From an uncultured candidatus Brocadiaceae bacterium (GTDB lineage Bacteria; Planctomycetota; Brocadiia; SM23-32): 32,109 nucleotides of DNA. Location: assembly GCA_964534775.1 (NCBI GenBank), contig CAZHPE010000001.1, forward strand, positions 33,009-65,117, written 5' to 3'. Under the pieces are notes generated by a model. That model was not told the origin of the DNA. It saw nothing but the letters and a program-made list of their open reading frames with translations, and did not search any database. The position numbers and the translations under genes are program-made. Shown here one piece after another: positions 10,393 to 24,685 of this stretch; within the stretch, counting starts at the first letter, position 1; every line of letters begins with the position of its first letter.

Positions 10393-11493
10393 TCAAGCGA
10401 CCCTGATGCGGAACCAGCGGATGCCGTAGACGCAGTCCTCGCAGCACCAGCAGTAGCCCATGATTTCGCCCCCGGGCAGCATCACCATCCCGGGGAAGCC
10501 GAACTTCAGCGCGCTCAGCTCGTCTGCGCTGGCCCCTTCGCCGACCATGCCCGACTGCGCCCCCTGCCATATCGGCGCCTCCTCCAGGTTCACCCAGCGG
10601 TCGCCGTCCATCCGCGAAAGGTTCGCCCACAGGCCCGGCCTGTCGTCCCGGCGGTAGAGGCACAGGATGCGGCCGTCGGCGAGCGGGTGGATCTTGGTGG
10701 TCTGGCCGCGCAGGCCCGTGGGGCGCGGCGCGGAGAACGTGCGCCCGTCCTCCGAGAGCGCATACGGCGTGGGATCGGTGCGGCCGGTACCCTCATCGAG
10801 CGCCCAGCAGACGGCCAGCAGCCGGCCGTCCGGAAGCTGCCGGAGCGACTGCTCCCAACTGGTGAGGTCCCGGCCGTACTGGTCGATCACGTCCAGATGC
10901 TCGGCCCACGTCTCGCCCTTGTCGTGCGAGACCAGCGCCACGGCCCTCACGCCATAGGGCGCCTCGCCGTCCCATGTCTTGAACATCGCCGTCGGGAACA
11001 GCAGGCGTCCGTCTGCCAGCTCGACCACCGAATGGCAGATCTCAAACCGCCCGCCGGGCAGCGACGGGCGCACCGTCTCCGGCCCTTCCCAGGTGCGTCC
11101 CTCGTCATGGCTGCGCAGAACGATCAGCTCCGTGTCCACATAGCCGAGGTTCTCGCGGTTGATTATGCCCACCTCGGAATCGTCGCGGAAGATCCGCCCG
11201 CCCATGGCGATCAGCGTGCCGTCGGAGAGCCGGTTGATGCGCACGGTGTGGACCGAGCGGCGCGGGACCGGGTCCTCGAACATCCGCGCCGGCTCCGACC
11301 ACGTCGCCCCGCCATCGCTGGAGCGGCACACGTAGGTGCGGTAATCGAGGCTCTCCACCGCCTGCCCCAGGTCGAAAGCCGCCACCAACTCGTTCTCTCG
11401 CAGGCACACCAGCGACGGATGCCAGGCGTGGATCGCGCGCAGGTAGGGTTTCGGGTTGCGATAGATCAGGCCCGTGCTGAGACATTCGATCAT
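10393..11493 (-). CDS. BNR/Asp-box beta-propeller, sialidase-family protein (no signal peptide)
   Basis: Asp boxes SSDGGATW, SHDEGRTW, SHDKGETW, SEDGRTF; C-terminal FGFP. Confidence 0.85.
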   Translation of the reverse strand: MIECLSTGLIYRNPKPYLRAIHAWHPSLVCLRENELVAAFDLGQAVESLDYRTYVCRSSDGGATWSEPARMFEDPVPRRSVHTVRINRLSDGTLIAMGGRIFRDDSEVGIINRENLGYVDTELIVLRSHDEGRTWEGPETVRPSLPGGRFEICHSVVELADGRLLFPTAMFKTWDGEAPYGVRAVALVSHDKGETWAEHLDVIDQYGRDLTSWEQSLRQLPDGRLLAVCWALDEGTGRTDPTPYALSEDGRTFSAPRPTGLRGQTTKIHPLADGRILCLYRRDDRPGLWANLSRMDGDRWVNLEEAPIWQGAQSGMVGEGASADELSALKFGFPGMVMLPGGEIMGYCWCCEDCVYGIRWFRIRVA

Positions 11494-11516
11494 GGCTTGC
11501 CCCCCTATTGACGAAA

Positions 11517-13853
11517 CTATAGAAGACGCTGGAATCCGCTGTGGGCCACGGGGCCCTTCAGGCGCTTTTTCACCTCTTCCTTCTCAAGCGCGTCGGCGAT
11601 CTCGGCGAACACCTCATCGATTGCCACGGCGTAGCGCCCGATGATCCGGTCAGTGTGCGCCAGCGTAACGGAGATGGACAGCCCGGCGAGGTAGCCGCGC
11701 TCCAGCATGAGCTGAATGTAGAGGGTCTTGAGCTCGGCGGCGAGCGCGTGCTCGAAAGCGAAGTGCGCCAGGGCCGGGTAGGTATCCTCAACCTCTACCG
11801 GAAGTCCGTGCCGCCCGGCCGCCGCGCGCCAGGCGTCCTGGACCTTTCGGCCGATGCGTGCGCAGTGCGCCGGCACATCTACCTCCTGCATCTTCCGGAT
11901 GGTGGCGAGCGCCGCCGCCGGTCCGATTCCCTCCGTCCAGTATGTGCTGCTGATGAAGGACGTGTGAGCGCCCTCCATGGCCTCGCGCGTTCCAATCACG
12001 GCGGCCATGGGGTGGCCGTTGGCGATGCTCTTGGCGAAGACCGCCATGTCGGGCGAGACCCCGAGCCTAAGATGCGCCCCGCCCAGAGCGAGCCGCCAGC
12101 CGATCGACACTTCGTCGAAGACCAGCAGCGCCCCGGCCCTGTGCGCCTCGTCGCGGACGAACTCGAGGAACCCCGGCTCGGGGTCCCGGTAGCGGCACGG
12201 CTCCATGACGACCGCCGCCAGCCGGTCCCCGTGCTCGTCGAGGATTCTCGTCAGTTCCTCGCGGTTGTTGTAGGTGAAGGTGAGCGAGGTGCCGCGGAGC
12301 TCCCTCGGCACCCCGAGCGGATCGAGCCCGGAGAGCAGGTGGCCGCGCAGGGCGTCGTTCTCGCCGAGGTTCGCCGCGAGATACCAGTCGTGCCAGCCGT
12401 GGTAGCCGCAGATGGCGATCAGCGAGCGGTCGGTCGTGGCGCGCGCTATGCGGGCCGCAATGCTCATTATCTCGCCACCGGTGCGCGCATACCGCACCTG
12501 CTCCGCCCATGGGTGCAGCTCGCAAAGGAGCCTGGCGAGCTCGACCTCCTCGGGCGGGCTGAGCGTGCAGAAGCTGCCCCGGGCGATGCGGCGCTGGACC
12601 GCGCGGGTTACATCCGGGTTCCTGAACCCCAGCAGGCATGCCGAGATGCCGGTCTTGCCGACGTCGTAGTAGTGCCTCCCGTCCAGGTCCCATACCTCGC
12701 ACCCGCGCGCCTCGCGGAAGTAAGCGGGCCACTGATCCGGGGCTTCCATCTCGGGGCGTTTGCTAAGGAGCTGCGTCCCGCCGGGGATGATGGTCTTCGC
12801 CTCGCGGTAGAGGTCCTGGACGACGCCCTCCGTCTCTGCCTTCATGCCGAGCAGGCGCAGGGCGTTGTCGCAGAAGACGTCCTGGAGGTCTTCTGCGCTC
12901 AGGAACCCGCCATCGGCCGCCCTGAGCAGCGCGTGGAGCGATTCCAGGCCGACCATGACCGGTTCGCCGAAGAACGCCCTCTCATTCCATTCCATCTGGT
13001 CCGTGGCGACCCAGACGAAACCGGTTCCGAGCGTGACGGCGCGCCCGCGCTCCTGCGAGACCGGGAAGTCGGTGCCCCACAGCAGGCGGCGCGGGCCGAA
13101 CTCGTCCAGGATGGCCGCGAACGGCTCGGCCTCGCAGATGGCCGCCGAATCGAACCAGACGTTCTCGAGCCCCCGCAGCGCGGAGATGCCCTTCACGGTG
13201 TTGGTAGCGTTGAATCCCCGTGCCGCGTGGGCCAGCAGAAGCCTGGCGTTCGGGTACTTCTCGCATCGGGTGACGATGCTCTTCTGGTTCTGCGGGTCCG
13301 AAAGCGCGCCGAGCCGCACCATGTGAAGCAGGATGACCAGCCCGCGCTCTTCGGCCAGCTCCCACGCCCACTCGGGCACGAACTCATCCAGCGTACACTC
13401 GTACGAGGGCGATTTCCCGCTGTAGACGTGGTAGGGCTTGAAGCAGCGCACGCGCGGGTTCTGAAGCAGCGCCTCGGCGGCCTCCCGCGTTTGCTCGGGG
13501 TAAACAAGGATGGAAGCCGCACACCCCGGGGCGTCAGCAACCTGCGCGGCCACGTATGCGTTGGCCGCGTCGGGATCGCCGTCCCGGCTGGGGTGGGGCG
13601 TGAACAGGGCGCCGCAGAGGCATTCGGCGCCCACCTGGCCGCCGATGTAGTGGCGCCAGGTCGCTTGGTCGTACTCCGGCGGACCGCTTGCGTAGAAGGC
13701 GCCGTAGGGGTCCAGATGCTCTTTGTGGAAGAGGTGCGCGTGGACGTCGAAGAGGCGTTCCGGAAGGCGCGCCTGCAGCTCCGCCGCAAACGCGCGGTCC
13801 GCCTCCGTGAAGGTCCATCCCGGGGGGATGTCGGGGTTCATCATCTCGCTCAT
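11517..13853 (-). CDS. Fusion of an N-terminal amidohydrolase-superfamily domain and a C-terminal class III aminotransferase (GSA-aminomutase-like)
   Basis: N-half: DVHAH, KPYH, LLHM, LAHAARGF, WFDS, GTDFP. C-half: IPGGTQLLSKRPE, RTGGE, GYHGWHDW, MEP, FDEV, FAKSIANG, SSTY. Confidence 0.9.
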   Translation of the reverse strand: MSEMMNPDIPPGWTFTEADRAFAAELQARLPERLFDVHAHLFHKEHLDPYGAFYASGPPEYDQATWRHYIGGQVGAECLCGALFTPHPSRDGDPDAANAYVAAQVADAPGCAASILVYPEQTREAAEALLQNPRVRCFKPYHVYSGKSPSYECTLDEFVPEWAWELAEERGLVILLHMVRLGALSDPQNQKSIVTRCEKYPNARLLLAHAARGFNATNTVKGISALRGLENVWFDSAAICEAEPFAAILDEFGPRRLLWGTDFPVSQERGRAVTLGTGFVWVATDQMEWNERAFFGEPVMVGLESLHALLRAADGGFLSAEDLQDVFCDNALRLLGMKAETEGVVQDLYREAKTIIPGGTQLLSKRPEMEAPDQWPAYFREARGCEVWDLDGRHYYDVGKTGISACLLGFRNPDVTRAVQRRIARGSFCTLSPPEEVELARLLCELHPWAEQVRYARTGGEIMSIAARIARATTDRSLIAICGYHGWHDWYLAANLGENDALRGHLLSGLDPLGVPRELRGTSLTFTYNNREELTRILDEHGDRLAAVVMEPCRYRDPEPGFLEFVRDEAHRAGALLVFDEVSIGWRLALGGAHLRLGVSPDMAVFAKSIANGHPMAAVIGTREAMEGAHTSFISSTYWTEGIGPAAALATIRKMQEVDVPAHCARIGRKVQDAWRAAAGRHGLPVEVEDTYPALAHFAFEHALAAELKTLYIQLMLERGYLAGLSISVTLAHTDRIIGRYAVAIDEVFAEIADALEKEEVKKRLKGPVAHSGFQRLL

Positions 13854-13855: not shown

Positions 13856-14824
13856 TCACGCCGTCCTTTCGCTTATCTCGTCCAGCGGAACCTTGCGCCC
13901 GCCCTCCTTGCGGCTGCGGGTGCCGGCGATGATGATCTTCATCATCTCGACCGTCTGCGGCCACGGGATCGGCCGCTCGCCGGTGCGAAGATAATCCACG
14001 AAGCTCTGGAGCTGCGTCTTGAATGCGTAGAACGTGTCGGAAACGCTAGCCTTCAGGTCCGACTTCGTGCCCATGACGGAGAGGTGCCCGAACCCGCCGT
14101 GCATGTCCTTTATTGCGATCAGGACCACATCAACGCCGCGCTCGTGCTCCAGGTGGACGATGTTGCGGTCTATGGTGCCGGTGTTGCGCGCGGAGGTAAA
14201 CCCTGGCCCGACAAGGGGATACAGTCCTTCCAGGGCGTGAACCCCGTAGCGCTCCCAGGTCTTCGCCGTGGAGAGCGAAAGAAACCGCAGCTCTCCGATT
14301 TCGCCCAACTGCTCCCGCGCCGCCGCGAACTCGCGCGAGTAGCGCAAGGCGCTCGAGGAGATGAGCGCCTTGCCTTCCTGCACCCAGGCGTGAAAGGCCT
14401 GGAGGTCGGGCTCGTTATCGACGAGCGGCTTGTCGACGAAGATCGGCAGCCCGGCCTCGATAAACGGGCGCGCCCGGTCCACGTGCTCGTGCCCGATGTC
14501 GGTGGCGATGATGACGGCGTCCACCTGGCCGATCACGTCCGCGGCCGTCTCGACGACGTTGGGTATCCTCGAAGCCGCGGCGACCCTTTCGGCAGCGGTC
14601 GGATCGTCGGTCCAGATGTGGGTCACGCGGGCGCCCTCGATCTGGAGCGTCGCGGGGTCCTCGGCGCCGAGGTACTCGGGGATCGTGGCGTAGGGGCAGT
14701 CCGCCATCGCCTCCCGATCGTACCCGTTGAAGATGGCGCTCCAGGAGTAAGGGTGGCCGTTCCCGTCGACCATGCCGAGCATGGCCAGGCGTATGTTGTC
14801 TGCGTCCGGCACGAGGGCTGCCAT
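13856..14824 (-). CDS. Gfo/Idh/MocA family oxidoreductase
   Basis: RLAMLGMVDGNGHPYSWS, DAVIIAT, FVDKPL, SSSALRY, YGVH; the stop abuts the next start. Confidence 0.85.
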   Translation of the reverse strand: MAALVPDADNIRLAMLGMVDGNGHPYSWSAIFNGYDREAMADCPYATIPEYLGAEDPATLQIEGARVTHIWTDDPTAAERVAAASRIPNVVETAADVIGQVDAVIIATDIGHEHVDRARPFIEAGLPIFVDKPLVDNEPDLQAFHAWVQEGKALISSSALRYSREFAAAREQLGEIGELRFLSLSTAKTWERYGVHALEGLYPLVGPGFTSARNTGTIDRNIVHLEHERGVDVVLIAIKDMHGGFGHLSVMGTKSDLKASVSDTFYAFKTQLQSFVDYLRTGERPIPWPQTVEMMKIIIAGTRSRKEGGRKVPLDEISERTA

Positions 14825-14870: not shown

Positions 14871-15881
14871 TTATATCTCCACGGCGCGGCCGAGCCGCCC
14901 GCTCTCGGCGGCGGCCATGCAGATCGCAACTGTGTGCGCGGCTTCCTCGAGAGAACACAGGATTTCGGCCTTCCCTTCGACGGCGTCGAGGAAGTTGTTT
15001 GCCTCGAGCACGAAGGGCTCATCCACTTGGCCCTTCGCGTCGCGCTTGCCGGCCGGCACCGGCGTCCAGTTCCATTCGCCCGTCTCGCGATGCAGGATGC
15101 CCACCTTCTCGAGCGAGTTGTCGCAGATTACTTGCTTGTCATTGCTTGAGAGGGTGACCCGGTTGGTCTGACAGGGGTGCCACATTGAGACGTGGATGTT
15201 GCACATGGCGCTGCTGTCGCGAAAGCGCAGCAGCGCCGAGAGCGTGTCTTCCACGTCCGCATCTTCCCAGGCCAGGCGCTCGTAGCTCGCCACCACCTGC
15301 CTCACAGGGCCCAAAAACCACTGGATCAGGTTGGCCCGGTGCGAGAGCTGGTCCGGAATCGCGCCGCCACCCATCGCCTTACTGACCGCGTAGGTGCTGC
15401 GGTAGTCCGGGCGGGCGACGCGATGGTCGTAGCCGCAGACGCAGGTGATGTCCAGAATCTCCCCGGCCCGGCCGGAGTCGATCTCGTCCTTAACCACCTT
15501 CGCAATGCGCGTCGCCCGTAGCAGAAAGGCCACGCCGATGGTGAGCCCCTTCTGCTCAGCGGTGCGCCCAAGCTCGGGGACGCCCGCCAGATCCAGCGAG
15601 AGCGGCTTTTCGATGAAGGCGTGACAGCCGGCGTCAATCACCCGGCGCGCGTAGGGCACGTGGAGGCGGGGCGGCAAGCAGATAACCGCCGCGTCGAACC
15701 GGGACAGGTCGATCCCATCGAAATCATCGAATGTGGCGGAGAGCGCATACCTGGCCGCCATCTCATCCCGGCGTTCCGGCTTGGTCTCGCACAGCGCCAC
15801 CTCGGCCCGGCCCGTGTTGATGAAGCACCGGGCGTGGCGCTCTCCGATGCTGCCCCCCCCTACCACCAGCACTCTATACAT
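14871..15881 (-). CDS. Gfo/Idh/MocA family oxidoreductase
   Basis: VVGGGSIGERH, FIEKPL, GGGAIPDQLSH, VEDT; GGAGGAG RBS. Confidence 0.9.
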   Translation of the reverse strand: MYRVLVVGGGSIGERHARCFINTGRAEVALCETKPERRDEMAARYALSATFDDFDGIDLSRFDAAVICLPPRLHVPYARRVIDAGCHAFIEKPLSLDLAGVPELGRTAEQKGLTIGVAFLLRATRIAKVVKDEIDSGRAGEILDITCVCGYDHRVARPDYRSTYAVSKAMGGGAIPDQLSHRANLIQWFLGPVRQVVASYERLAWEDADVEDTLSALLRFRDSSAMCNIHVSMWHPCQTNRVTLSSNDKQVICDNSLEKVGILHRETGEWNWTPVPAGKRDAKGQVDEPFVLEANNFLDAVEGKAEILCSLEEAAHTVAICMAAAESGRLGRAVEI

Positions 15882-15928: not shown

Positions 15929-16016
15929 CCCATCGCCTAACCGTGAGGGGTCCATGCCGGGCCGCCTGGCGCAGCTTTCGCTCCGGTCGCCCATCCCCTA
16001 CCCGTGAGGGGTGCAT
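15929..16016. repeat. 27-bp imperfect direct repeat with a 61-bp period
   Basis: CCCATCGCCTAACCGTGAGGGGTCCAT (15929-15955) vs CCCATCCCCTACCCGTGAGGGGTGCAT (15990-16016), 24/27 identical. Confidence 0.7.
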
Positions 16017-20006: not shown

Positions 20007-21200
20007 TCAGGATCGGGCGAAAACAACCTTGCCGCGGATGATCGTTGTCTCGACCTGCATGTTCTCGTCCGCGATGCAGATGTCGGCGTCCTTGCCCGCT
20101 TCCAGGCTACCCTTTCGCCGGTTTGCACGGATGAGGCGCGCCGGGTTCAGCGTGGCCATCTGGACGGCCTGGCACAGGGGCAGCTCGGCCATGCGTGACA
20201 TGTTGATCACGCCCTTGTTGAGCGTCAGCAGGCTGCCTGACAGCCCCAGCGTGTCCGCGGTCCTGCACGAGACGCCGTCGGAGACGACCGGCATTCCGGG
20301 CGCGAACTCGTACCTGCCCGGCGGCATGCCAGCGGCCTTTGTGCTGTCGGTGACGATCACGAGCCGGTCCACGCCCTTGGCGCGCACCGCGAGCTTCATG
20401 AGCAGCGGCTGCACGTGGATGCCGTCCACGATGAGCTCGGCGCACAGACGGTCCTCGCACAGGATCAGGTCCGCCAGCGCCGGCCACTCGGTGCCCGGCT
20501 CCACCTCCGGCGAGCGGGGCCGCATGGCGTCGTAGAGGTGGATGACGTGGCTGGCGCCCGCATCGACCGCTTTCGCGAACACCTTTGCGTCCGCTTCCGA
20601 GTGCCCGATCGCTGCCACGACGCGATTCGCCGCCAGCCTCTTGATGAACCCGATCGCCCCCTTCAACTCCGGCGAGAGCGTGACTATCTTGACGATCCCC
20701 TTCCCCAGGCGGATCAACCGCTCCTGTGCCTGCGCCGAGGGGACGGCGAGGTGTCTTCCCGGGAACGCGCCGTATGCGGGATGGAAGTACGGTCCCTCCA
20801 GGTGCACGCCGAGGATCTGCGCGCCGTCGTAAGAGTCCCGGGCCGCGGCCCTCACCTCATCGAGGCATTCTCTCAGCTCCTGCTCGCCCAGGCAGCCGAG
20901 CGTCGGCAGGAACCCGGTCACGCCGTAGCGGATCAGGTTGCGCCGGATGTTCAGGACCGCCTCGGCGCCCTCATTGGCGTTGGTGCCGCACATGCCGTGA
21001 ATATGCGTCCCGATCAACCCCGGCAGGACCTTCTTGCCGTGCGCCGATATCCTGCGAGCCCCCTTCGGGACGGTCACTTTCCGGGCAGGACCGACCGCGG
21101 CGATCTTCCCGCCCTTGAGTACCACGCGCCCGGACCGGATGGTCTCCAGCGGTGTGATGACCTCGCCGCCGCTGATTACGAGCAGGTCGCCCTTGGCCAT
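20007..21200 (-). CDS. nagA: N-acetylglucosamine-6-phosphate deacetylase family amidohydrolase
   Basis: PGLIGTHIHG, GVTGFLPTL, HLEGPY, IGHS, HLYDAM, IVDGIH, VTDS, LSGS, NPA, GKDAD. The exact substrate is uncertain. Confidence 0.82.
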   Translation of the reverse strand: MAKGDLLVISGGEVITPLETIRSGRVVLKGGKIAAVGPARKVTVPKGARRISAHGKKVLPGLIGTHIHGMCGTNANEGAEAVLNIRRNLIRYGVTGFLPTLGCLGEQELRECLDEVRAAARDSYDGAQILGVHLEGPYFHPAYGAFPGRHLAVPSAQAQERLIRLGKGIVKIVTLSPELKGAIGFIKRLAANRVVAAIGHSEADAKVFAKAVDAGASHVIHLYDAMRPRSPEVEPGTEWPALADLILCEDRLCAELIVDGIHVQPLLMKLAVRAKGVDRLVIVTDSTKAAGMPPGRYEFAPGMPVVSDGVSCRTADTLGLSGSLLTLNKGVINMSRMAELPLCQAVQMATLNPARLIRANRRKGSLEAGKDADICIADENMQVETTIIRGKVVFARS

Positions 21201-21221: not shown

Positions 21222-21998
21222 TCACTTGCACGTGCGGCCGGCGTCCACGGGCAGGTTCACGCCCGTGATGTAGGCCGCGGCGTCGCTGGCCAGGAACACG
21301 ATCGCGCCCTTCAGGTCGTTGTCGCCCGCCATGCGGCCGAGGCACGTGCTCTTCTCGTAGCGCCACAGGAACCCCTGCTCTTGGTCGGTGAAGTAACCGC
21401 CCGGCGAGATGGTGTTGCATCGCACCCCGCGCGCTCCGTAGTGGGCGGCCACATAGCGTGTGAGGTTGATCATGCCGGCCTTGTGGAAGAAGTAGTCCGG
21501 CGGCTGGGGCCAGCCAACTTCCTCGTAGATCCAGAGGTCTGGCCCGACCATCCCGAAGATCGAGCTGATGTTGATGATGCTGCCGCGCCCGGCATCCCCC
21601 ATCTTCTCGGCGAAGGCCCGCGTGACCAGAAACAGGCCGGTGGCGTTGACCTCCATGCTCTCTTTCCACGTCTCGACGGGATCGGTCCAGGCTTTCATAG
21701 GCCGGAGCACGGAGTTGTTCACGAGCACGTCCAATTGCCCCGCCTGATCGTAGATCGTGTCGCGAAGGGCGAGGATGGATTCTTCCTCGGCGAGGTCGAA
21801 CTGAAGCGCCGTCACGTCCAGGCCCCGGGCGCGCTCCTGCTCGGCCACTTCCTCCAGGGCCGCCAGGTTGCGCGAGGCCACGAAGGTCTTTGCGCCAGCC
21901 TCCGCGACCCCCGCGACGATCTGCCGCCCGTACAGGCCCGCCCCGCCCGTCACGAGCGCGACTTTCCCTTCGAGGGAAAAGCTCTCCATAACGTTCAT
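21222..21998 (-). CDS. Short-chain dehydrogenase/reductase (SDR)
   Basis: LVTGGAGLYG, LVNNS, NISSIFG, YFFHK (YxxxK), RCNTISPGG; ATGA overlap with the upstream aldolase. Confidence 0.92.
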   Translation of the reverse strand: MNVMESFSLEGKVALVTGGAGLYGRQIVAGVAEAGAKTFVASRNLAALEEVAEQERARGLDVTALQFDLAEEESILALRDTIYDQAGQLDVLVNNSVLRPMKAWTDPVETWKESMEVNATGLFLVTRAFAEKMGDAGRGSIINISSIFGMVGPDLWIYEEVGWPQPPDYFFHKAGMINLTRYVAAHYGARGVRCNTISPGGYFTDQEQGFLWRYEKSTCLGRMAGDNDLKGAIVFLASDAAAYITGVNLPVDAGRTCK

Positions 21999-22798
21999 GT
22001 CGCCGAGTCCTTTCCCGCTGGAATCAAACCGGTTTTGGCAACGGTCTCGATCACGCCGTCGAAATACTTCCAGAGGCCCACCACGTCCGCGCAGACGTTC
22101 AGGAACCGGTAGCCCATCTCCCACATCTTCGGCACGTCCGCCGGGGCGCACACGGTGCCCGCGAACTTGCCGTGCCTAGCGGCGGCCTCGACGACGGCCG
22201 CGCGGGCGTCCGCTATCTCCGGAGCGTCCCACTGCCCGAGCTTGCCGATGCCGTGGGAGAAGTCGCCCGGGCCGTACAGCAGCATGTCGTAGCCCGGCAC
22301 CGCCGCGATCTCGTCCAGCTCTTCGAGCGGCTCGGGGTCCTCAATCTGGAACACGATGAAGCGCTCCCGGTTCGCCTGCTCGGTGTAGGTGAGCGGGTCG
22401 ATCTTGCAGAAGAAGCCGTCGAGGTTCCCGCCGTCGAGCGGCCGCCGGCCGACGGGATGGAACCGCGTCATGCGCACGACCTCGCGGGCCTGCTGCGCGC
22501 TCAGGATGTGCGGCACCATGATGCCCGTCGCGTCCATCTCGAGCGGGCGGATGTAGTCGGAGTAGCTCCCCCGGCAGACGCGGACCATCGCGTCGACGTC
22601 GTGGAGCTTCGCCGCGCGCACTTGGTTCTCCAGGGGGATCCAGTCGGTCGGCACGTGCTCGTTGCAGAGCCAGATACAGTCGAAACCGCTCGACGCCGCG
22701 ATCTCGACCATGCGCGGGTCGGCGGAGTTGATCTTCGCGCCGATCGCCAGGCGTCCTTCGCGCAGCTTTCGCAGAACCCGGCTCGGTCTCATTTCCAT
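21995..22798 (-). CDS. HpcH/HpaI family aldolase
   Basis: FDCIWLCNEHVP, MVRV, GIMVPHI, FHPVGRR, FQIED, GPGDFS. Confidence 0.9.
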   Translation of the reverse strand: MEMRPSRVLRKLREGRLAIGAKINSADPRMVEIAASSGFDCIWLCNEHVPTDWIPLENQVRAAKLHDVDAMVRVCRGSYSDYIRPLEMDATGIMVPHILSAQQAREVVRMTRFHPVGRRPLDGGNLDGFFCKIDPLTYTEQANRERFIVFQIEDPEPLEELDEIAAVPGYDMLLYGPGDFSHGIGKLGQWDAPEIADARAAVVEAAARHGKFAGTVCAPADVPKMWEMGYRFLNVCADVVGLWKYFDGVIETVAKTGLIPAGKDSAT

Positions 22799-22819
22799 AC
22801 GCTTTCTCCTCGGTGGCCC

Positions 22820-23278
22820 CTACGAGGCGCCCTCGGGCGCCTGCTTCCTCACGTCCTTTATCACCACGCTGCACCGGGCCCTGTGGCACTCGGATCTGTC
22901 GGGTATGTGCTTGAAGCCCAGGGGGTCGAGGACGCGCTGGTAGAGCACGTCGCAGTGGCCGCAGTAGTCGTGGTACGGTTCGATGTGGGTCAGCTCCAGC
23001 AGGAGTCCCTTCGAGGGGCAGTGGTGCATGTTGATCCGGAACTCGCCCGCCTCCTCGTCCAACGCCATCGTAAAGTCGGCGGCCTCCTCGTTGAGCGTGT
23101 GGGTCCAGTAGAGCCAGCAGCCGCGTATGCCGTGCTCTGTCACAAGGTCGCGCAGGTTGCCCAGGAAGGTGTCGGAGAGATAGTTCCAGAAATCGACGAC
23201 GGCCTCCGTGCCGCCCTCCTGCTCCAGGAACTTGAACAACTCGGAATACGCCGGGATGAAGTCCGTGCAAGGTATCAT
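22820..23278 (-). CDS. Hypothetical Cys/His-rich small protein, possibly V4R/ATC-hydrolase-like fold
   Basis: GGAGG RBS 5 nt before ATG 23278; MHHCPSKG...DYCGHC...ECHRARC. The fold assignment is inference. Confidence 0.75.
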   Translation of the reverse strand: MIPCTDFIPAYSELFKFLEQEGGTEAVVDFWNYLSDTFLGNLRDLVTEHGIRGCWLYWTHTLNEEAADFTMALDEEAGEFRINMHHCPSKGLLLELTHIEPYHDYCGHCDVLYQRVLDPLGFKHIPDRSECHRARCSVVIKDVRKQAPEGAS

Positions 23279-23280
23279 GG

Positions 23281-23742
23281 TCACCTCCGATAGAACCGCA
23301 CGACGGAGCGCCCCGTCCCCTCATCGTACTCGGGCATCTCCGCGGCGAACGGAGTTCCCTCGCAGAGGGCTTCGTTGACCGTTCCGGTCGTTTCGCGCCA
23401 GAGCCGGGCCACGTGGTATCCGTGCTCGCGCATGTGCATGACGGCGGGGCAGGCCTCGACCTCTATGACCAGTTCGTCCTCGGACAGCCGCGTCTTGACC
23501 TTGCCGCCCTCGAGCTCGTAGATATTCTCAAAATGCTCCTTGATGGCCTTGAGGCCATGTTCCTTCACGGCCTCGATGAGGGGCGCGTAGAAGGCGGCGG
23601 TGAACTGGCGCAGATACCGTTGGACGGCCCCTTCGCCGAAGTGCTCGTGCACGTACTCGACGCCCCGGCTCAAGGCCCCGTGGAAGTCCTTGTGCAGATA
23701 CGCATTGTCCGAGGCCCGCCTCCGCATCACTTCCTTAGGCAT
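23281..23742 (-). CDS. Hypothetical small protein, possibly V4R/ATC-hydrolase-like fold
   Basis: Overlaps the DHDPS-like stop by 8 bp; LHKDFHG, FGEGAV..YL, EVEACPAV, C-terminal RSVVRF. Length and layout resemble the neighbouring gene. Confidence 0.75.
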   Translation of the reverse strand: MPKEVMRRRASDNAYLHKDFHGALSRGVEYVHEHFGEGAVQRYLRQFTAAFYAPLIEAVKEHGLKAIKEHFENIYELEGGKVKTRLSEDELVIEVEACPAVMHMREHGYHVARLWRETTGTVNEALCEGTPFAAEMPEYDEGTGRSVVRFYRR

Positions 23743-24685
23743 GGCTTTCCCCTTTACGCGGCATCAACACGTCGACATCCCGCTCCAGCACGCGCGCAAT
23801 GGCCTTGACGCATGAGGCCGTGAGCGGGTAATCCGGGAAGTTCTTCCACGTCCGGAAGACCCCCATCTCGACCAGGAGCTTCTTCTCGCCCGAGAGCCAG
23901 CACGTGAGCTTCTTGCCGCCGTATACGGCGAACATGATGCGGCTCATGCGCCTCTGAAGGCGCTCTACGAGGGCAAAGTCGCCCGCCTGCGCGGCCGCGA
24001 CAATCATGTTCGCCAGGTAGCCGTTGAACACCCCGCCGCCGAGCAGCAGCCCGTTGTAGCCCGCCTTCATGTAGACGTCGCACTGCCACTCGTTCCCGTT
24101 CAGAAGCCGCAGGGCGGGGCGTTTGCGCCTCGCAGCCAGGGCGATCTTGCAGCGCCCGGGGTCCGACGAACTGTCCTTGACCAGGATGACTTTCTTCTCG
24201 GCATATATTTTGCCCAGGTCCGCGTTGCTCACGGCGAAGCCGTTTGTGCCCGGCCGGTCGTAGATGCCCACTGGCAGGGGGCTCTTGCGGATGGCCTCCT
24301 GGTAGAGGCCCAGCATCTTGCCGGCCATCAACGGGAACGGAAAATAGGGGGGTGCGATGACGGCGATGTCGGCCCCGTCCCCCTTGACAACGCGCGCGTT
24401 CTCAAGGATTCGGGCGGCCGAATTGTCCGTCACCTGGACGGCGATCGGCAGCCGGCCCTTCGCGCACCTGACCACGGTGCTGACAAGCACGCGCCGGTGC
24501 TCGTCCGTCATCCAGGGACCCTCGCCGTTCGTCCCCGCCAGGAACAGCCCCTTCACGCCGAGGCGCAGGTGGTGCTCGACCATTCGCCTGACCGCCACCG
24601 TGTCCACTTGCATCCGGTCCGTGAACGGCGTCGGCGCTGCGGACCAGACGCCCGAAAGCCTTTCAGCCGCAAACTTTGATCCCAT
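23735..24685 (-). CDS. DHDPS/NanA family class I aldolase/lyase
   Basis: APTPF, GLFLAGTNGEG, APPYF, GIYDRP (catalytic Tyr), VKDSS (Schiff-base Lys). Alternative start at 24691. Confidence 0.9.
   Translation of the reverse strand: MGSKFAAERLSGVWSAAPTPFTDRMQVDTVAVRRMVEHHLRLGVKGLFLAGTNGEGPWMTDEHRRVLVSTVVRCAKGRLPIAVQVTDNSAARILENARVVKGDGADIAVIAPPYFPFPLMAGKMLGLYQEAIRKSPLPVGIYDRPGTNGFAVSNADLGKIYAEKKVILVKDSSSDPGRCKIALAARRKRPALRLLNGNEWQCDVYMKAGYNGLLLGGGVFNGYLANMIVAAAQAGDFALVERLQRRMSRIMFAVYGGKKLTCWLSGEKKLLVEMGVFRTWKNFPDYPLTASCVKAIARVLERDVDVLMPRKGESHA

What the first reader, a model, noticed from the sequence alone, without database searches (positions are those of the whole stretch)
10393..24685. 13-gene cluster resembling an undescribed catabolic pathway for a di-N-acylated amino sugar or aminocyclitol
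Seen, in transcription order: DHDPS/NanA-like lyase, two unknown small proteins, HpcH aldolase, SDR, NagA-like deacetylase, ceramidase-like amidase, DegT aminotransferase, Zn dehydrogenase, two Gfo/Idh/MocA enzymes, an amidohydrolase-class III aminotransferase fusion, and a cytoplasmic Asp-box sialidase-like protein. Several junctions overlap. That gives three amide-hydrolase-type domains, two aminotransferases, four dehydrogenases and two pyruvate-type aldolases. There is no nucleotidyltransferase or glycosyltransferase, which argues against glycan biosynthesis. Inference: release, deacylation, deamination and cleavage of a substrate with two amino groups. Candidates are a pseudaminic/legionaminic-type nonulosonate (sialidase plus NanA-like lyase) or an aminocyclitol/aminoglycoside (DegT plus Zn dehydrogenase plus MocA-like, as in inosamine chemistry). 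The substrate cannot be read from sequence.
Basis: partly seen in the sequence, partly recalled or inferred. Interest (0 to 1): 0.72.

Follow-up and report, generated by a model that had tools for sequence, protein, structure and literature searches.

The report
Conserved uncharacterised amino-sugar breakdown gene cluster
Thirteen neighbouring genes in an uncultured planctomycete look like an undescribed route for breaking down an N-acetylated amino sugar, built around a three-enzyme core found in seven bacterial phyla and including two small proteins of no known family.

Summary
The 13 co-directional genes are real (window 10393-24691, minus strand). The Amidohydro_2 half of the fusion resembles lactonases, not amidases. 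The BNR protein cannot be shown to be a sialidase.

The cluster is modular. Only 1 of 58 related loci carries all 13 genes. The conserved part is a triad: a ceramidase-like Zn amidase, a Fic25/DOI-type DegT aminotransferase and a Tdh/polyol-type Zn dehydrogenase. These lie together in 36 of 58 loci from seven phyla, often with a GntR/UTRA regulator, a NagA-like deacetylase and sugar transporters.

Three accessory blocks come and go: DHDPS aldolase plus two small unknown proteins; GFO, HpcH aldolase and SDR; and lactonase plus class III aminotransferase.

The two small proteins are Cys/His-rich, and no Pfam domain is recorded for G3's listed relatives (at least 1502 clusters). They are predicted to heterodimerise, occur as natural fusions, and are sometimes fused to the YhcH sialate-anomerase domain.

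Best reading: an uncharacterised catabolic route of deacylation, transamination to ketones, redox steps and pyruvate aldol cleavage. The substrate is unknown. Diacetamido-deoxy sugars or 9-deoxy-nonulosonates fit best but are unproven. Ten literature searches found no description.

The parts
23735..24691 (-). G1, class I pyruvate aldolase/lyase of the DHDPS superfamily (318 aa)
   Evidence: Pfam DHDPS, 106 bits. It fails the dapA (85.8 vs 206) and nanA (58-71 vs 281-382) cut-offs. Best solved relative is 4xky, E 1.4e-26; NanA entries reach about 1e-17. Orthologues at 58-63% identity sit directly before G2-G3 in L018, L029 and L054.
23281..23742 (-). G2, small unknown protein (153 aa), distant paralogue and predicted partner of G3
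   Evidence: No Pfam or NCBIfam hit. hhalign against G3: probability 81%, E 1.3e-5. Weak ATC_hydrolase signal in 4 of 9 members, best E 0.011, and in the Atlas at 0.90. Its start overlaps the end of G1 by 8 nt.
22820..23278 (-). G3, small Cys/His-rich unknown protein (152 aa)
   Evidence: No Pfam hit. 1502 clusters at E<=1e-3; the 120 listed are all unnamed or 'hypothetical' and have no precomputed Pfam domain. It is 66-73% identical across phyla. Conserved residues are C87-P, Y-C106-x-H108-C109 and C136. The model has pLDDT 80.9, and its fold neighbours are V4R phenol-sensor domains, Bet3 and H-NOX at weak E of 0.01-0.1.
21995..22798 (-). G4, class II (metal-dependent) pyruvate aldolase, HpcH/HpaI family (267 aa)
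   Evidence: Pfam HpcH_HpaI, 81 bits. HpaI, GarL and KDR-aldolase models score 89-116 bits, all below their cut-offs. Orthologues at 55-63% identity occur in L018, L032, L033, L043 and L058.
21222..21998 (-). G5, short-chain dehydrogenase (258 aa), closest to the gluconate 5-dehydrogenase/KduD type
   Evidence: Pfam adh_short_C2, 139 bits. The best NCBIfam model, gluconate 5-dehydrogenase, scores 192.6 against a cut-off of 279. Its start overlaps the G4 stop by 4 nt.
20007..21200 (-). G6, NagA (N-acetylglucosamine-6-phosphate deacetylase family, 397 aa)
   Evidence: TIGR00221 nagA scores 272.5 bits against a cut-off of 225.65. It is the only one of the 13 proteins to reach a curated equivalog cut-off among the rows shown.
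18594..19901 (-). G7, ceramidase-N-domain-like Zn amidase (435 aa), first member of the core triad
   Evidence: Most listed homologues carry PF04734. The profile hits neutral ceramidases at 1.6e-15 with the HxHSGP and His200 columns aligned to HTHSGP and the later His. It has no ceramidase C-terminal domain (435 aa against 646-688 aa).
17206..18555 (-). G8, DegT-family PLP aminotransferase (449 aa), second member of the core triad
   Evidence: Pfam, 309 bits. Best solved relative is Fic25 (8gyh), E 1.4e-86, over the full length including the C-terminal extension and the FSL..K..GEGG lysine stretch. DOI aminotransferases also align to residue about 401, whereas nucleotide-sugar enzymes align only to about 308. 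It is 57-65% identical across phyla.
15998..17032 (-). G9, Zn-dependent medium-chain dehydrogenase (344 aa), third member of the core triad
   Evidence: Pfam ADH_N + ADH_zinc_N. Tdh scores 150 bits and IolM 144 bits, both far below their cut-offs. The best solved relatives are threonine 3-dehydrogenases (3e-31) and polyol dehydrogenases.
14871..15881 (-). G10, Gfo/Idh/MocA oxidoreductase (336 aa)
   Evidence: Pfam, three GFO domains. Best solved relative is 3q2k, E 8e-18, followed by inositol dehydrogenases and a glucuronide 3-dehydrogenase. Close orthologues occur only in L001 and L002.
13856..14824 (-). G11, divergent Gfo/Idh/MocA oxidoreductase (322 aa)
   Evidence: Pfam matches the NAD domain only, 35.6 bits. 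Orthologues at 43-60% identity lie next to HpcH in L032, L058 and L043.
11517..13853 (-). G12, fusion of an Amidohydro_2 domain (probable lactonase) and a class III PLP enzyme (778 aa)
   Evidence: Pfam Amidohydro_2 (residues 91-336) and Aminotran_3 (residues 375-678). The C-terminal half resembles GSA aminomutase, C-6' aminotransferase and FumI. For the N-terminal half, the fold neighbours of a poor model (pLDDT 64) are LigI lactonase (E 7e-7) and COG3618 amidohydrolases. The two halves occur as separate genes in L028, L029 and L038.
10393..11493 (-). G13, BNR/Asp-box beta-propeller protein (366 aa); lineage-specific last gene
   Evidence: Pfam BNR_2, 59.5 bits. Best solved relative is the uncharacterised Dfer_1899 (5hx0), E 3.9e-8; sialidases reach about 2e-4. 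An orthologue occurs only in L001.
24829..24856 (-). Promoter-like site upstream of G1, in the 360-nt divergent intergenic region
   Evidence: Consensus scan, 9 of 12 matches with a TG extension. The region gave 4 sites against 1.8 expected. This is a pattern match only.
10241..10258 (-). Terminator-like hairpin downstream of G13
   Evidence: Consensus scan. The count does not exceed chance: 8 sites found against 8.9 expected.

Best explanation
This is a modular catabolic operon for an N-acylated amino sugar or amino-sugar acid. It has not been characterised.

The core is a three-step 'de-amination' module:
1. G7, a Zn amidase related to the neutral-ceramidase catalytic domain, removes an N-acyl group (probably acetyl).
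2. G8, a DegT-family PLP aminotransferase of the kind that works on free substrates rather than nucleotide-linked ones, moves the freed amine onto a 2-oxo acid and leaves a ketone flanked by hydroxyls.
3. G9, a Zn-dependent dehydrogenase of the threonine/polyol type, reduces that ketone or oxidises the neighbouring carbinol.
The net effect is that an acetamido group becomes a hydroxyl. This is the reverse of the dehydrogenase, aminotransferase, N-acetyltransferase logic used to make amino sugars.

In this organism the core is combined with further steps:
- a canonical NagA (G6) for a second N-acetyl group;
- an oxidative branch, in which the GFO dehydrogenases G10 and G11 form a lactone, the G12 N-domain opens it, and the fused class III PLP domain acts on the resulting amino-aldonate;
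- an SDR (G5) of the gluconate-5-dehydrogenase/KduD type;
- two pyruvate aldolases (G1 class I, G4 class II) that split a 4-hydroxy-2-oxo (2-keto-3-deoxy) acid into pyruvate and an aldehyde.

G2 and G3 form a heterodimer that serves the class I aldolase step, possibly by ring opening or anomerisation of an ulosonic acid. G13 may release the sugar from an imported oligosaccharide.

Shown by computation: family membership, conservation and adjacency, active-site motifs, and the predicted G2-G3 pairing. Inferred: every substrate, the order of the steps and their direction.
For: Conservation of the core:
- G7, G8 and G9 homologues lie together in 36 of 58 loci anchored on G7 relatives (tblastn; 31 of these lie within 3 genes on the same strand).
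- By record titles these loci come from Planctomycetota, Chloroflexota, Armatimonadota, Verrucomicrobiota, Kiritimatiellota, Latescibacterota and Spirochaetota.
- Triad-linked copies are spread over the whole G7 tree.

Catabolic context in those loci:
- GntR+UTRA regulator in 16 loci and GntR+sugar-binding regulator in 7.
- CUT1 ABC transporter sets, an SSF symporter, MFS, an Opp-type ABC transporter, ROK kinases, sulfatases and a GH172-type domain.
- No NagB within the fetched stretches (up to 10 kb each side).

Individual enzymes:
- The G7 profile aligns the ceramidase Zn-site motif.
- The nearest solved relative of G8 is Fic25 (E 1.4e-86, full length). Fic25 aminates a 6-oxo group flanked by 5- and 7-hydroxyls on a non-nucleotide substrate (passages of PMC11726168).
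- G9 is closest to threonine and polyol dehydrogenases.
- G6 passes the nagA cut-off.
- The fold neighbours of the G12 N-domain are lactonases. Its two halves are separate genes elsewhere, which fits consecutive steps.

G2 and G3:
- They are adjacent in 8 of 58 loci, and all 8 are triad loci.
- DHDPS-G2-G3 is a fixed block in L001, L018, L029 and L054 as well as the window.
- Complex prediction scored 0.93 in all three runs against a best control of 0.01. That mark was reached by 116 of 157 solved complexes and 2 of 215 mismatched pairs. The runs agree in at least 97% of contacts and the partner pLDDT is 92. My own shallow alignments were used, so the calibration holds only roughly.
- Of the 21 proteins of 230 aa or more among the 150 listed representatives, 7 are full G3-G2 fusions in the opposite order to the genes (P0244, P0249, P0264, P0268, P0269, P0274, P0278). 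One more has G2-G3 order, and three are partial.
- Three representatives fuse a G3-like domain to DUF386/YhcH (E 1e-22 to 1e-24). YhcH is a Zn-containing anomerase that hands NanA the open form of Neu5Ac (abstract of PMC8141875).
Against: - No enzyme was assayed, and no substrate can be read from sequence.
- The closest characterised relatives of G8 (Fic25, DOI aminotransferases, perosamine synthase) and of G10 are biosynthetic.
- The cluster has no kinase, although canonical NagA needs a 6-phosphate.
- It has no recognisable sugar-acid dehydratase, although two aldolases imply a 2-keto-3-deoxy acid.
- The window cluster has no transporter or regulator of its own.
- Gaps of 105, 116 and 173 nt could hide internal promoters, so a single transcript is not shown.
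- The promoter and terminator hits are pattern matches at or near chance.
- NagA-like genes in most other triad loci fall below the nagA cut-off (6 of 8 scanned scored 154-188 bits against 225.65). They may therefore not do what G6 does.
- The G12 N-domain model is poor (pLDDT 64), and the G3 fold matches are weak (E >= 0.01).
- The 58 loci were chosen by similarity to G7. The 36/58 figure describes that family, not genomes at large.
Confidence: 0.5

Rival explanations
1. Specific version A. The substrate is a di-N-acetylated 6- or 9-deoxy amino sugar: pseudaminic or legionaminic acid, or their hexose halves (2,4-diacetamido-2,4,6-trideoxyhexoses such as bacillosamine). G1, helped by G2/G3, splits the nonulosonate into pyruvate and the diacetamido-trideoxyhexose. 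G7 and G6 remove the two acetyl groups. G8 and the class III enzyme remove the two amines. The dehydrogenases tidy up the ketones. The resulting 6-deoxyhexose goes to the neighbouring isomerase, rhamnulokinase-like kinase and aldolase genes.
For: - The gene content matches the need: two deacetylases, two aminotransferases and a NanA-superfamily lyase.
- The best NCBIfam rows for G8 are PseC (215 bits) and the LegC family (184 bits).
- The Fic25 substrate pattern, an amine between two carbinols on an acid chain, matches C5 and C7 of these acids. That match rests on established structures and is my inference.
- Thr-dehydrogenase likeness of G9 fits the terminal CH(NH2)-CH(OH)-CH3 of 9-deoxy acids (inference).
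- G3-like domains are fused to the sialate anomerase family DUF386.
- The flank encodes a rhamnulokinase-like FGGY kinase (400 bits), a FucI-like isomerase and a ketose-bisphosphate aldolase.
- No catabolic route for these sugars turned up in the search.
Against: - All the G8 equivalog scores are far below cut-off (215 against 423.5).
- G1 fails nanA.
- G13 is not demonstrably a sialidase and is present in 1 of 58 loci.
- Most triad loci have no aldolase and only one aminotransferase.
- Canonical NagA acts on a 6-phosphate, which a 6-deoxy sugar cannot carry.
- The flank link is seen only in the window and L001.
Confidence: 0.2
2. Specific version B. The core triad is a phosphorylation-independent, NagB-independent way to turn a common free N-acetylhexosamine (GlcNAc, ManNAc or GalNAc, or the aldonic acid GlcNAc1A) into a neutral sugar or acid. 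The steps are deacetylation, C2 transamination to an osone or 2-keto acid, and reduction.
For: - The triad is widespread and sits with NagR-type GntR/UTRA regulators, chitobiose-type ABC transporters and NagA-like genes, but no NagB within the fetched stretches.
- One distant homologue (30% identity) fuses an N-sulfoglucosamine-sulfohydrolase-type sulfatase to the G7-like domain. Similar sulfatases lie near the triad in 3 loci. This points to N-substituents of hexosamines.
- Three Chloroflexi loci add a fold-type III D-Ser-dehydratase-like enzyme of the same class as OngC.
Against: - I know of no DegT-family enzyme that acts at C2 of a hexosamine (recalled, not tested).
- Two deacetylases would be redundant for a mono-N-acetyl sugar.
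- The second aminotransferase and the two aldolases are left unexplained.
Confidence: 0.18
3. Aminocyclitol (inosamine, 2-deoxystreptamine or rhizopine-type) catabolism. The DegT enzyme, the Zn dehydrogenase and the GFO enzymes would run the inosose/inosamine interconversions in reverse.
For: - G8 aligns nearly full length with 2-deoxy-scyllo-inosose aminotransferases (E 1e-55).
- G9 scores 144 bits on scyllo-inosose 3-dehydrogenase IolM, and G10 79.5 bits on IolG.
- A DegT enzyme next to a Zn dehydrogenase is also the pairing used in 2-deoxystreptamine synthesis (recalled).
Against: - All these scores are far below cut-off.
- No inosose dehydratase or hydrolase (IolE/IolD type) was seen in the Pfam scans, apart from one xylose-isomerase-like TIM barrel in L003.
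- NagA, pyruvate aldolases, sugar ABC transporters and sulfatases do not fit cyclitols.
- Such substrates seem too rare for a module shared by seven phyla (my judgement).
Confidence: 0.06
4. The cluster is biosynthetic. It would make an amino sugar, amino-acid-like polyol or aminocyclitol-derived metabolite.
For: The nearest characterised relatives of G8 (Fic25, BtrR-type, perosamine synthase), the best hit for G10, and the GSA-aminomutase-like half of G12 all belong to biosynthetic pathways.
Against: - The cluster has no nucleotidyltransferase, glycosyltransferase, N-acyltransferase, carrier protein or exporter.
- It has two deacylases and two retro-aldol-type enzymes.
- Related loci carry substrate-responsive repressor types and uptake systems.
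- One GNAT does sit next to the triad in L043, and one GT2 lies three genes upstream of the block's regulator gene in L041.
Confidence: 0.06
5. There is no single pathway. The 13 genes are a chance juxtaposition of two to four independent small operons that share only a strand: the amino-sugar triad, an aldolase block, a sugar-acid block and a BNR gene.
For: - The blocks occur separately in other genomes.
- L002, at 75% identity, lacks G1-G3 and G13.
- Gaps of 105-173 nt lie exactly at the edges of the triad.
Against: - The same accessory families rejoin the triad repeatedly in unrelated phyla and in different orders. Examples are L018 (Kiritimatiellota), L032 and L058 (Spirochaetota), and L028 and L054 (Chloroflexota).
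- G2/G3 were found only in triad loci: 8 of 36 against 0 of 22.
Confidence: 0.1

Closest known systems
Oxidative chitin (GlcNAc1A) pathway OngB/OngC/OngD/KdgK of Pseudoalteromonas (PMC9537276; passages read)
   Same: The logic is the same. A cytoplasmic N-acetyl amino-sugar acid is deacetylated without prior phosphorylation, de-aminated by a PLP enzyme to a 2-keto-3-deoxy acid, and sent to an aldolase. The pathway is repressor-controlled and uses an SSS-family transporter; L029 has an SSF symporter. Three Chloroflexi triad loci also carry an OngC-class fold-type III PLP enzyme.
   Different: The protein families differ. OngB is a D-aminoacylase-type amidohydrolase, whereas here the deacylases are a ceramidase-like amidase and NagA. 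OngC is a dehydratase-type PLP enzyme, whereas here there are a DegT and a class III aminotransferase. No RidA or KdgK is present, and there are four extra dehydrogenases.
Biosynthesis of 3- or 4-acetamido sugars and of 2-deoxystreptamine (dehydrogenase, then DegT aminotransferase, then N-acetyltransferase; WbpB/WbpE/WbpD, PglF/E/D, PseB/C/H, BtrS/NeoA; recalled)
   Same: The enzyme superfamilies are the same (GFO or Zn-MDR dehydrogenase next to a DegT aminotransferase). The chemistry at one carbon is also the same: hydroxyl, ketone, amine, acetamide. WbpE and DOI aminotransferases are among the solved relatives of G8.
   Different: The proposed direction is the reverse. An amidase replaces the acetyltransferase. 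There are no nucleotide-sugar enzymes. The full-length matches of G8 are to enzymes acting on substrates that are not nucleotide-linked.
Canonical sialic acid/GlcNAc catabolism (sialidase, NanA, YhcH, NanK, NanE, NagA, NagB)
   Same: A NanA-superfamily lyase, a NagA that passes its cut-off, a BNR propeller, and an accessory protein family whose relatives are fused to the YhcH domain.
   Different: G1 fails the nanA models. No NanK, NanE or NagB was found in the window. G13 is not demonstrably a GH33 enzyme. A DegT, a Zn dehydrogenase and a ceramidase-like amidase have no place in the canonical route.
Non-phosphorylative L-rhamnose/L-fucose pathways (SDR dehydrogenase, Amidohydro_2 lactonase, dehydratase, HpcH-family aldolase; recalled)
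   Same: Three of the four enzyme families are present: G5, the G12 N-domain and G4. G5 scores 135 bits on L-rhamnose 1-dehydrogenase Lra1, and G4 89 bits on KDR aldolase.
   Different: No enolase-superfamily or IlvD-type dehydratase is present. All scores are below cut-off. The lactonase is fused to a PLP enzyme, which implies an amino-aldonate.
Neutral ceramidase (2zws, 4wgk)
   Same: The N-terminal catalytic domain of G7's homologues aligns at E 1.6e-15, and the Zn-site motif columns are shared.
   Different: G7 has 435 aa and lacks the C-terminal domain. It has a cytoplasmic sugar-operon context. Lipid substrates are unlikely given the sugar transporters and regulators.
Fic25/AziC7 aminotransferases of DADH (azabicyclic amino acid) biosynthesis (PMC11726168; passages read)
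   Same: This is the closest solved relative of G8 (E 1.4e-86, residues 1-428 against 1-422). The catalytic-lysine stretch is shared. The substrate carries a ketone between two carbinols and is not nucleotide-linked.
   Different: Fic25 works on a carrier-protein-tethered intermediate in a secondary-metabolite cluster. No AmCP, transketolase or ArgB/C-like gene is present here.

Membership tests
GH33 exo-alpha-sialidase (G13) | Six-bladed propeller with Asp-boxes | tested here: met
   Pfam BNR_2 (59.5 bits) and BNR. Four SxDxGxTW-like boxes are visible in the translation.
GH33 exo-alpha-sialidase (G13) | Significant sequence similarity to characterised sialidases, and the catalytic Arg triad, Tyr/Glu and Asp | tested here: inconclusive
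   Sialidases reach only E about 2e-4 over Asp-box stretches. The best hit is the uncharacterised 5hx0 at 3.9e-8. Catalytic residues could not be aligned with the tools available.
N-acetylneuraminate lyase NanA (G1) | Reaches the curated NCBIfam equivalog score | tested here: not met
   NF003164 scores 70.7 against 281, and TIGR00683 58.2 against 382.
DHDPS/NAL class I aldolase superfamily (G1) | Pfam domain, with the Schiff-base Lys and the Tyr | tested here: met
   PF00701 scores 106 bits against 22.1. 'LVKDSS' and 'IYDRP' stretches are present in the translation. Their equivalence to the catalytic Lys and Tyr is recalled, not aligned.
NagA, GlcNAc-6-phosphate deacetylase (G6) | Reaches the curated equivalog score | tested here: met
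   TIGR00221 scores 272.5 against 225.65. The narrower NF008371 is not met (180 against 483).
Neutral/alkaline ceramidase (G7) | N-terminal catalytic domain with Zn ligands | tested here: met
   The profile of 28 homologues hits 2zws at E 1.6e-15, with HxHSGP and the later His aligned. PF04734 is precomputed for most homologues. G7 itself gives no Pfam hit at 0.01.
Neutral/alkaline ceramidase (G7) | C-terminal ceramidase domain and full length of about 650-700 aa | tested here: not met
   G7 and its relatives are 429-445 aa. The ceramidase chains are 646 and 688 aa, and only their first 500 or so residues align.
DegT/DnrJ/EryC1/StrS aminotransferases (G8) | Pfam domain and PLP lysine | tested here: met
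   PF01041 scores 309 bits. The lysine-bearing 'FSLnnlKN..GEGG' stretch aligns with Fic25.
PseC / LegC / ArnB / WecE nucleotide-sugar aminotransferase equivalogs (G8) | Reaches a curated equivalog score | tested here: not met
   The best is PseC at 215.3 against 423.5. All others are lower relative to their cut-offs.
L-threonine 3-dehydrogenase / scyllo-inosose 3-dehydrogenase (G9) | Reaches a curated equivalog score | tested here: not met
   Tdh scores 150.2 against 458, and IolM 143.9 against 450. Membership of the Zn-MDR superfamily is met by Pfam.
Glutamate-1-semialdehyde aminomutase (G12 C-domain) | Reaches a curated equivalog score | tested here: not met
   The best score is 219.9 against 486. 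The class III fold is met by Pfam at 124.5 bits.
Amide hydrolase reading of the G12 N-domain | Relatives that hydrolyse amides | tested here: inconclusive
   Pfam Amidohydro_2. There was no sequence hit in the PDB at E<0.29. The fold neighbours of a poor model (pLDDT 64) are lactonases (LigI, E 7e-7; COG3618), a C-C hydrolase and decarboxylases, with amide-ring hydrolases (dihydroorotases) only lower in the list.
HpaI / GarL / KDR aldolase equivalogs (G4) | Reaches a curated equivalog score | tested here: not met
   Scores are 89-116 bits against cut-offs of 369-441. Pfam HpcH_HpaI is met at 81 bits.
ATC_hydrolase (PF14196) / V4R-like fold (G2, G3) | Pfam gathering score or a significant fold match | tested here: not met
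   G2: 4 of 9 members reach a best E of 0.011, below threshold. G3: 0 of 8. The best Foldseek E is 0.0098, with TM about 0.45. This is a lead only.

The most novel reading that the evidence does not exclude
The cluster would be the first catabolic pathway for bacterial 5,7-diacetamido-9-deoxy-nonulosonic acids (pseudaminic/legionaminic type) and their diacetamido-trideoxyhexose halves. On this reading the ceramidase-like amidase, DegT aminotransferase and Zn dehydrogenase triad is a general, previously unrecognised 'acetamido-to-hydroxyl' module used by glycan-degrading bacteria of at least seven phyla. G2/G3 would be a new heterodimeric accessory factor, functionally akin to YhcH, that feeds the open-chain ulosonic acid to the lyase.
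Probability: 0.2. Interest if true: 0.85.

Novelty: new variant of a known kind. Interest (0 to 1): 0.62.

Why it matters
Amino sugars carry a large share of organic nitrogen in soils, sediments and sludge. Known catabolism covers mainly GlcNAc, GalNAc, sialic acid and, recently, oxidised chitin. Sugars with acetamido groups away from C2 are common in bacterial and archaeal surface glycans: bacillosamine, 2,3-diacetamido sugars, and pseudaminic and legionaminic acids. I know of no route for their breakdown, and the one search aimed at pseudaminic and legionaminic acid found none.

A conserved amidase, aminotransferase and dehydrogenase module in Chloroflexota, Armatimonadota, the PVC phyla, Latescibacterota and Spirochaetota would be a plausible answer. 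It would also give a function to a large ceramidase-like family that is now mis-annotated.

Independently of the substrate, G2/G3 define a highly conserved family (at least 1502 clusters; 66-73% identity between phyla). None of the 120 listed relatives has a precomputed Pfam domain. The family has a Cys3-His-Cys motif and a fusion link to the sialate anomerase family. That makes a testable lead for a new aldolase-accessory function.

Tried and rejected
- Literature. Ten full-text searches found no description of the gene set: 8GYH; 8Y96; ceramidase+DegT+dehydrogenase+deacetylase; 8GYI/8GYJ; Fic25; PF04734; Leg/Pse catabolism; DegT catabolic pathway; GlcNAc1A; neutral ceramidase+GlcNAc+GntR. 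Subscription-only papers and supplements were not searched.
- Rfam. No family reached its gathering score anywhere in the window, so no known riboswitch lies in the G1 leader.
- Plasmid collection. G7 has only 27-28% identical relatives. The Agrobacterium pAt context (peptidase, multicopper oxidase fragments) was uninformative. G3 has no match.
- Longer forms of G7. Only one was found, a sulfatase fusion at 30% identity. The tool warns that finding few is weak evidence.
- G12 N-domain. There was no useful sequence match to solved structures. The structure model was poor (pLDDT 64), so its lactonase neighbours are only a lead.
- G3 fold search. The matches (V4R sensor domains, Bet3, H-NOX) all have E >= 0.0098. 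The idea that G3 is a sensor domain replacing a regulator was dropped, because the 6 intact non-window G2/G3 loci outside the close relative L001 all also have a GntR/UTRA gene.
- The listing of cluster members, for the sources of the fusion proteins, could not be run. The fusions therefore rest on predicted metagenome proteins whose contigs I could not inspect.
- L058. Its G3 orthologue contains a stop and its G7 region is split into several ORFs. It was left out of alignment A3 and of the tree, but counted as triad-positive by tblastn.
The neighbourhoods of G3, G8 and G12 homologues outside G7-anchored loci stayed unchecked.

Full report
**What is there**

The window has about 66% G+C, so six-frame ORF lists are crowded (149 ORFs of at least 80 aa). 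Between 10393 and 24691 the minus strand carries 13 consecutive genes. None has an internal stop, and most have purine-rich SD-like sequence upstream.

Pfam assigns 10 of the 13 at E<=0.01:
- G1: DHDPS
- G4: HpcH_HpaI
- G5: adh_short
- G6: Amidohydro_1
- G8: DegT_DnrJ_EryC1
- G9: ADH_N/ADH_zinc_N
- G10: GFO_IDH_MocA
- G11: weak GFO_IDH_MocA
- G12: Amidohydro_2 + Aminotran_3
- G13: BNR_2

G2, G3 and G7 have no hit. G7 is still ceramidase-like. Its database relatives are about 435 aa, and most carry precomputed PF04734. A profile of 28 of them hits neutral ceramidases 2zws and 4wgk at 1.6e-15 and 1.2e-14, with the HxHSGP motif and a later His in register.

Among the NCBIfam rows shown, only G6 reaches a curated cut-off (nagA TIGR00221, 272.5 against 225.65). 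All the others are superfamily-level matches.

Junctions:
- Overlaps: G1/G2 by 8 nt and G4/G5 by 4 nt.
- 2-nt gaps: G2/G3 and G11/G12.
- All other gaps: 21, 21, 105, 38, 173, 116, 46 and 23 nt.

A promoter-like site (24856-24829) lies in the 360-nt divergent region upstream of G1, and a terminator-like hairpin (10258-10241) follows G13. Terminator-like sites are no more frequent than in shuffles (8 against 8.9), so these are only pattern matches. Rfam found nothing in the window.

**Conservation**

One genome-contig scan was made with the G7 alignment and 10-kb flanks. It returned 58 loci; 59 of 74 pattern matches were confirmed. All of them are MAG or metagenome records. I ran tblastn with the 13 proteins and the flanking proteins, at E<=1e-10 and at least 50% query coverage.

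Close relatives:
- L001 (a 'Brocadiaceae'-labelled MAG; G7 92% identical) has all 13 genes in the same order, plus the divergent FucI-like gene.
- L002 (75% identical) has G4-G12 only. Unrelated genes on the other strand lie at both ends.
- L003 (60% identical) has G7-G8-G9 and an SDR.

Beyond these close relatives the picture is modular:
- G8 and G9 homologues accompany G7 in 36 of 58 loci. In 31 they lie within three genes on the same strand. Four Chloroflexi loci have the order DegT-ZnDH-NagA-UROD-CER. L058 was counted by tblastn only.
- By record title these 36 loci come from seven phyla.
- On a FastTree of 57 G7-family proteins, the triad-linked copies are spread through all major branches. 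Several of the unlinked copies are second copies in MAGs that also hold a linked one, or lie at contig ends.
- Identities to the window proteins are 57-65% for G8, about 47-58% for G9 and 40-47% for G7.

Counts for the other genes, out of 58 loci:
- NagA-like: 22
- G2+G3: 8 (all of them triad loci)
- G1 at 58% identity or more: 4
- G4 at 55% or more: 7
- G5 at 57% or more: 8
- G11: 5
- G12: 3 as the fusion, plus 1 with the aminotransferase half alone
- G13: 1

**Neighbourhood**

I clustered the ORFs of all loci and ran Pfam on representatives. The recurring neighbours are:
- a GntR+UTRA regulator directly beside G7 or G8 in 16 loci, and a GntR+periplasmic-binding-type regulator in 7;
- AraC and HTH-cupin regulators;
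- a CUT1 ABC set (SBP_bac_1, two permeases, MalK-type ATPase) in the Chloroflexi loci;
- an SSF symporter (L029), MFS transporters and an Opp-type ABC transporter;
- ROK kinases (2 loci), Ldh_2 pairs, an AKR, URO-D/MtaA-like proteins, and SGSH-type sulfatases (3 loci);
- a DUF2961 domain and a fold-type III D-Ser-dehydratase-like enzyme (3 loci).

No NagB and no nucleotidyltransferase were seen. One GT2 lies three genes upstream of the block's regulator gene in L041, and one GNAT sits beside G7 in L043. This context argues for uptake and catabolism.

The NagA-like genes of 6 of 8 other loci scanned score below the nagA cut-off (154-188 bits). G6, L038 and L011 pass. So the window has a canonical NagA, whereas most triad loci have a divergent one.

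**The core enzymes**

G8. Its best solved relative is 8gyh/8gyj (E 1.4e-86, residues 1-428 against 1-422).
- PMC11726168 (passages read) identifies this structure as Fic25. Fic25 converts a carrier-protein-bound 5,7-dihydroxy-6-oxoheptanoate derivative into the 6-amino compound.
- 2-Deoxy-scyllo-inosose aminotransferases also align almost full length. Nucleotide-sugar aminotransferases align only up to residue about 308.
- G8 therefore groups with DegT enzymes that use substrates which are not nucleotide-linked and bear a ketone between two carbinols.

G9. It is nearest to threonine 3-dehydrogenases (3e-31) and polyol dehydrogenases.

G7. It keeps the ceramidase metal-site motif but lacks the C-terminal domain. 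The only longer relative found joins it to an N-sulfoglucosamine-sulfohydrolase-type sulfatase (30% identity). This is a weak hint that the family acts on N-substituents of hexosamines.

The simplest chemistry for an amidase, an aminotransferase and a dehydrogenase kept together is acetamide to amine to ketone to alcohol. That is the reverse of amino-sugar biosynthetic logic. This is an inference.

**Accessory blocks**

G12.
- The C-terminal half resembles GSA aminomutases, aminoglycoside C-6' aminotransferases and the aminopentol aminotransferase.
- The N-terminal half has the D-x-H-x-H start of Amidohydro_2 and no sequence match among solved structures.
- A poor model (pLDDT 64) has as best fold neighbours the LigI lactonase (E 7e-7), COG3618 amidohydrolases, LigY and IDCase.
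- The halves are separate genes in L028 (34% identity to the N-half), L029 and L038 (50% identity to the C-half).
- I read this as a lactonase followed by a PLP step on an amino-aldonate, with G10 and G11 as the C1 dehydrogenases. This is an inference.

G10. Its best solved hit is 3q2k (8e-18). I recall this entry as WlbA, a UDP-GlcNAcA 3-dehydrogenase, so a C3 role is equally possible.

G5. It is nearest to gluconate 5-dehydrogenase/KduD models.

G1 and G4. They are class I and class II pyruvate aldolases that fail all specific models.

A dehydratase that would make the 2-keto-3-deoxy acid is missing.

**G2 and G3**

- Both lack Pfam and NCBIfam hits.
- They are distant paralogues (hhalign probability 81%, E 1.3e-5).
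- G3 has 1502 relatives at E<=1e-3 among 1510 candidates. The 120 listed are 70-94% identical, unnamed or 'hypothetical', and have no precomputed Pfam domain.
- A profile search of 1.84 billion representatives found 342 proteins at E<=1e-3, 183 at <=1e-10 and 46 at <=1e-30.
- In 78 members the motif C87-P, Y-C106-x-H108-C109, Y113, C136 is kept wherever the column is filled. This suggests a metal site.
- The G3 model (pLDDT 80.9) weakly resembles V4R phenol-sensor domains, Bet3 and H-NOX (best E 0.0098, TM about 0.45).
- ATC_hydrolase is a sub-threshold lead for G2 (4 of 9 members, best E 0.011; Atlas 0.90).

Three independent lines say that G2 and G3 act together:
1. They are adjacent in a fixed order in all 8 loci that have them, and the G3 start falls on the last base of the G2 ORF in five of them (ORF coordinates).
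2. The complex prediction scored 0.93 in each of three runs, against a best control of 0.01. That mark was reached by 116 of 157 solved complexes and 2 of 215 mismatched pairs. Contacts agree in at least 97% and the partner pLDDT is 92. My own shallow alignments were used, so the calibration holds only roughly.
3. Natural single-chain G3-G2 fusions exist in the opposite order to the genes. There are 7 full ones among the 21 proteins of 230 aa or more within the 150 listed representatives.

Three further representatives join a G3-like domain to DUF386/YhcH (E 1e-22 to 1e-24). That domain is 46-54% identical to G3 and keeps all the Cys and His residues. YhcH is a Zn-containing cytoplasmic anomerase that supplies NanA with open-chain Neu5Ac (abstract of PMC8141875).

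DHDPS-G2-G3 is a fixed block in the window, L001, L018, L029 and L054, and G1 and G2 overlap. I therefore propose that G2/G3 assist the class I aldolase, perhaps by ring opening of an ulosonic acid. This is guilt by fusion and by neighbourhood, not a demonstrated function. The sources of the fusion proteins could not be inspected.

**G13**

It has four Asp-boxes. Its best solved relative is an uncharacterised BNR protein (5hx0, 3.9e-8), and sialidases reach only about 2e-4. It occurs in 1 of 58 loci. It cannot carry the sialidase argument.

**Which substrate**

The evidence fixes the type (N-acylated, amine-bearing, hydrophilic, sugar-like, ending in pyruvate) but not the compound.

A di-N-acetylated 6- or 9-deoxy sugar (Pse/Leg or bacillosamine type) uses the most genes. 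It agrees with:
- the Fic25-like and Thr-dehydrogenase-like specificities;
- the PseC/LegC-leaning scores of G8;
- the YhcH fusions;
- the adjacent rhamnulokinase-like, FucI-like and aldolase genes.

Against it: every one of these hints is weak, NagA needs a 6-phosphate, and most triad loci lack aldolases.

A common N-acetylhexosamine, or GlcNAc1A, explains the wide distribution but not the second deacetylase and second aminotransferase.

Aminocyclitols fit only by family resemblance.

Probabilities:
- generic mechanism: 0.5
- Pse/Leg/diacetamido version: 0.2
- HexNAc version: 0.18
- cyclitol: 0.06
- biosynthetic: 0.06
- unrelated juxtaposed operons: 0.1

The two specific versions are nested in the generic one.

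**Novelty**

The parts belong to known superfamilies, and the overall kind (a sugar catabolic operon) is ordinary. The combination is what appears undescribed in the ten searches made:
- a conserved ceramidase-like amidase, DegT aminotransferase and Zn dehydrogenase triad;
- the lactonase-aminotransferase fusion;
- the G2/G3 family.

I rate it a new variant of a known kind, with interest 0.62.

Noticed in passing
window 25052-29741 (+) and 29790-30653 (-): Divergent from G1 lie three genes on the + strand. The first is a FucI-like isomerase (142 bits against a cut-off of 775). The second is a RuBisCO-like protein (MtnW model 265 against 409; OiaX 136 against 700). The third is a rhamnulokinase-like FGGY kinase (400 against 528). 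On the - strand follows a class II ketose-bisphosphate aldolase, which passes the cbbA subfamily model (231 against 215.6). A RuBisCO-like protein inside what looks like a deoxy-sugar isomerase/kinase/aldolase set has no assigned function here. The FucI-like gene keeps its place in L001.
   Followed up: partly
window 30936-32021 (+); L004, L005, L006, L007, L009, L032, L058, L054, L038, L003: URO-D/MtaA-CmuA-like proteins recur near the triad. One sits between NagA and the ceramidase-like gene in 5 Chloroflexi loci, and L032 has three copies. No corrinoid protein was seen nearby. Their role in a sugar operon is unexplained.
   Followed up: partly
window 24770-24786 (-): A GC-rich hairpin followed by a T-run (CCCGCC-loop-GGCGGG CTTTTG) lies in the G1 leader, between the promoter-like site and the start codon. 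It could be an attenuator. Rfam has no match, and terminator-like sites are at chance frequency in this region.
   Followed up: no
window 5608-9553 (-): Downstream of the cluster lie three genes: a radical SAM protein with an HMPTM-type N-terminal Zn ribbon (7967-9553), a class V aminotransferase/cysteine-desulfurase-like gene (6467-7951) and an FMN reductase-like gene (5608-6585). This may be a separate small cluster.
   Followed up: no
window 1126-5150: A second HpcH/HpaI aldolase domain occupies residues 217-430 of a 449-aa ORF (3804-5150, -). A 783-aa minus-strand ORF with only a short GH4 match (1126-3474) overlaps a plus-strand DUF362/4Fe-4S gene (2638-3795). At least one of these ORF calls must be too long.
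   Followed up: no
protein P0391 (database protein, not in the window): This 915-aa protein fuses a sulfatase and an SGSH_C domain (N-sulfoglucosamine sulfohydrolase type) to a ceramidase-N-like domain that is 30% identical to G7. It was the only longer homologue found.
   Followed up: partly
L058 9665-12475 and about 20235-20678: The Spirochaetota locus L058 has the same gene set as L032. However, its G7 region is broken into several ORFs and its G3 orthologue contains a stop. This reflects either assembly errors or a decaying copy.
   Followed up: no
L032 7098-9259, L054 5078-7257, L058 7284-8171, L022 7784-8812: Ldh_2-family dehydrogenases (malate/L-lactate/ureidoglycolate/sulfolactate dehydrogenase type) lie near the triad in L032, L054, L058 and L022. 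In L032 and L054 they form tandem pairs directly upstream of the GntR/UTRA gene. They are absent from the window.
   Followed up: no
L054 364-4913: Upstream of the triad in this Chloroflexota locus lie a D-aminoacylase-like Amidohydro_3 protein, a second DegT aminotransferase and a TPP-dependent enzyme. This suggests a larger variant of the pathway.
   Followed up: no
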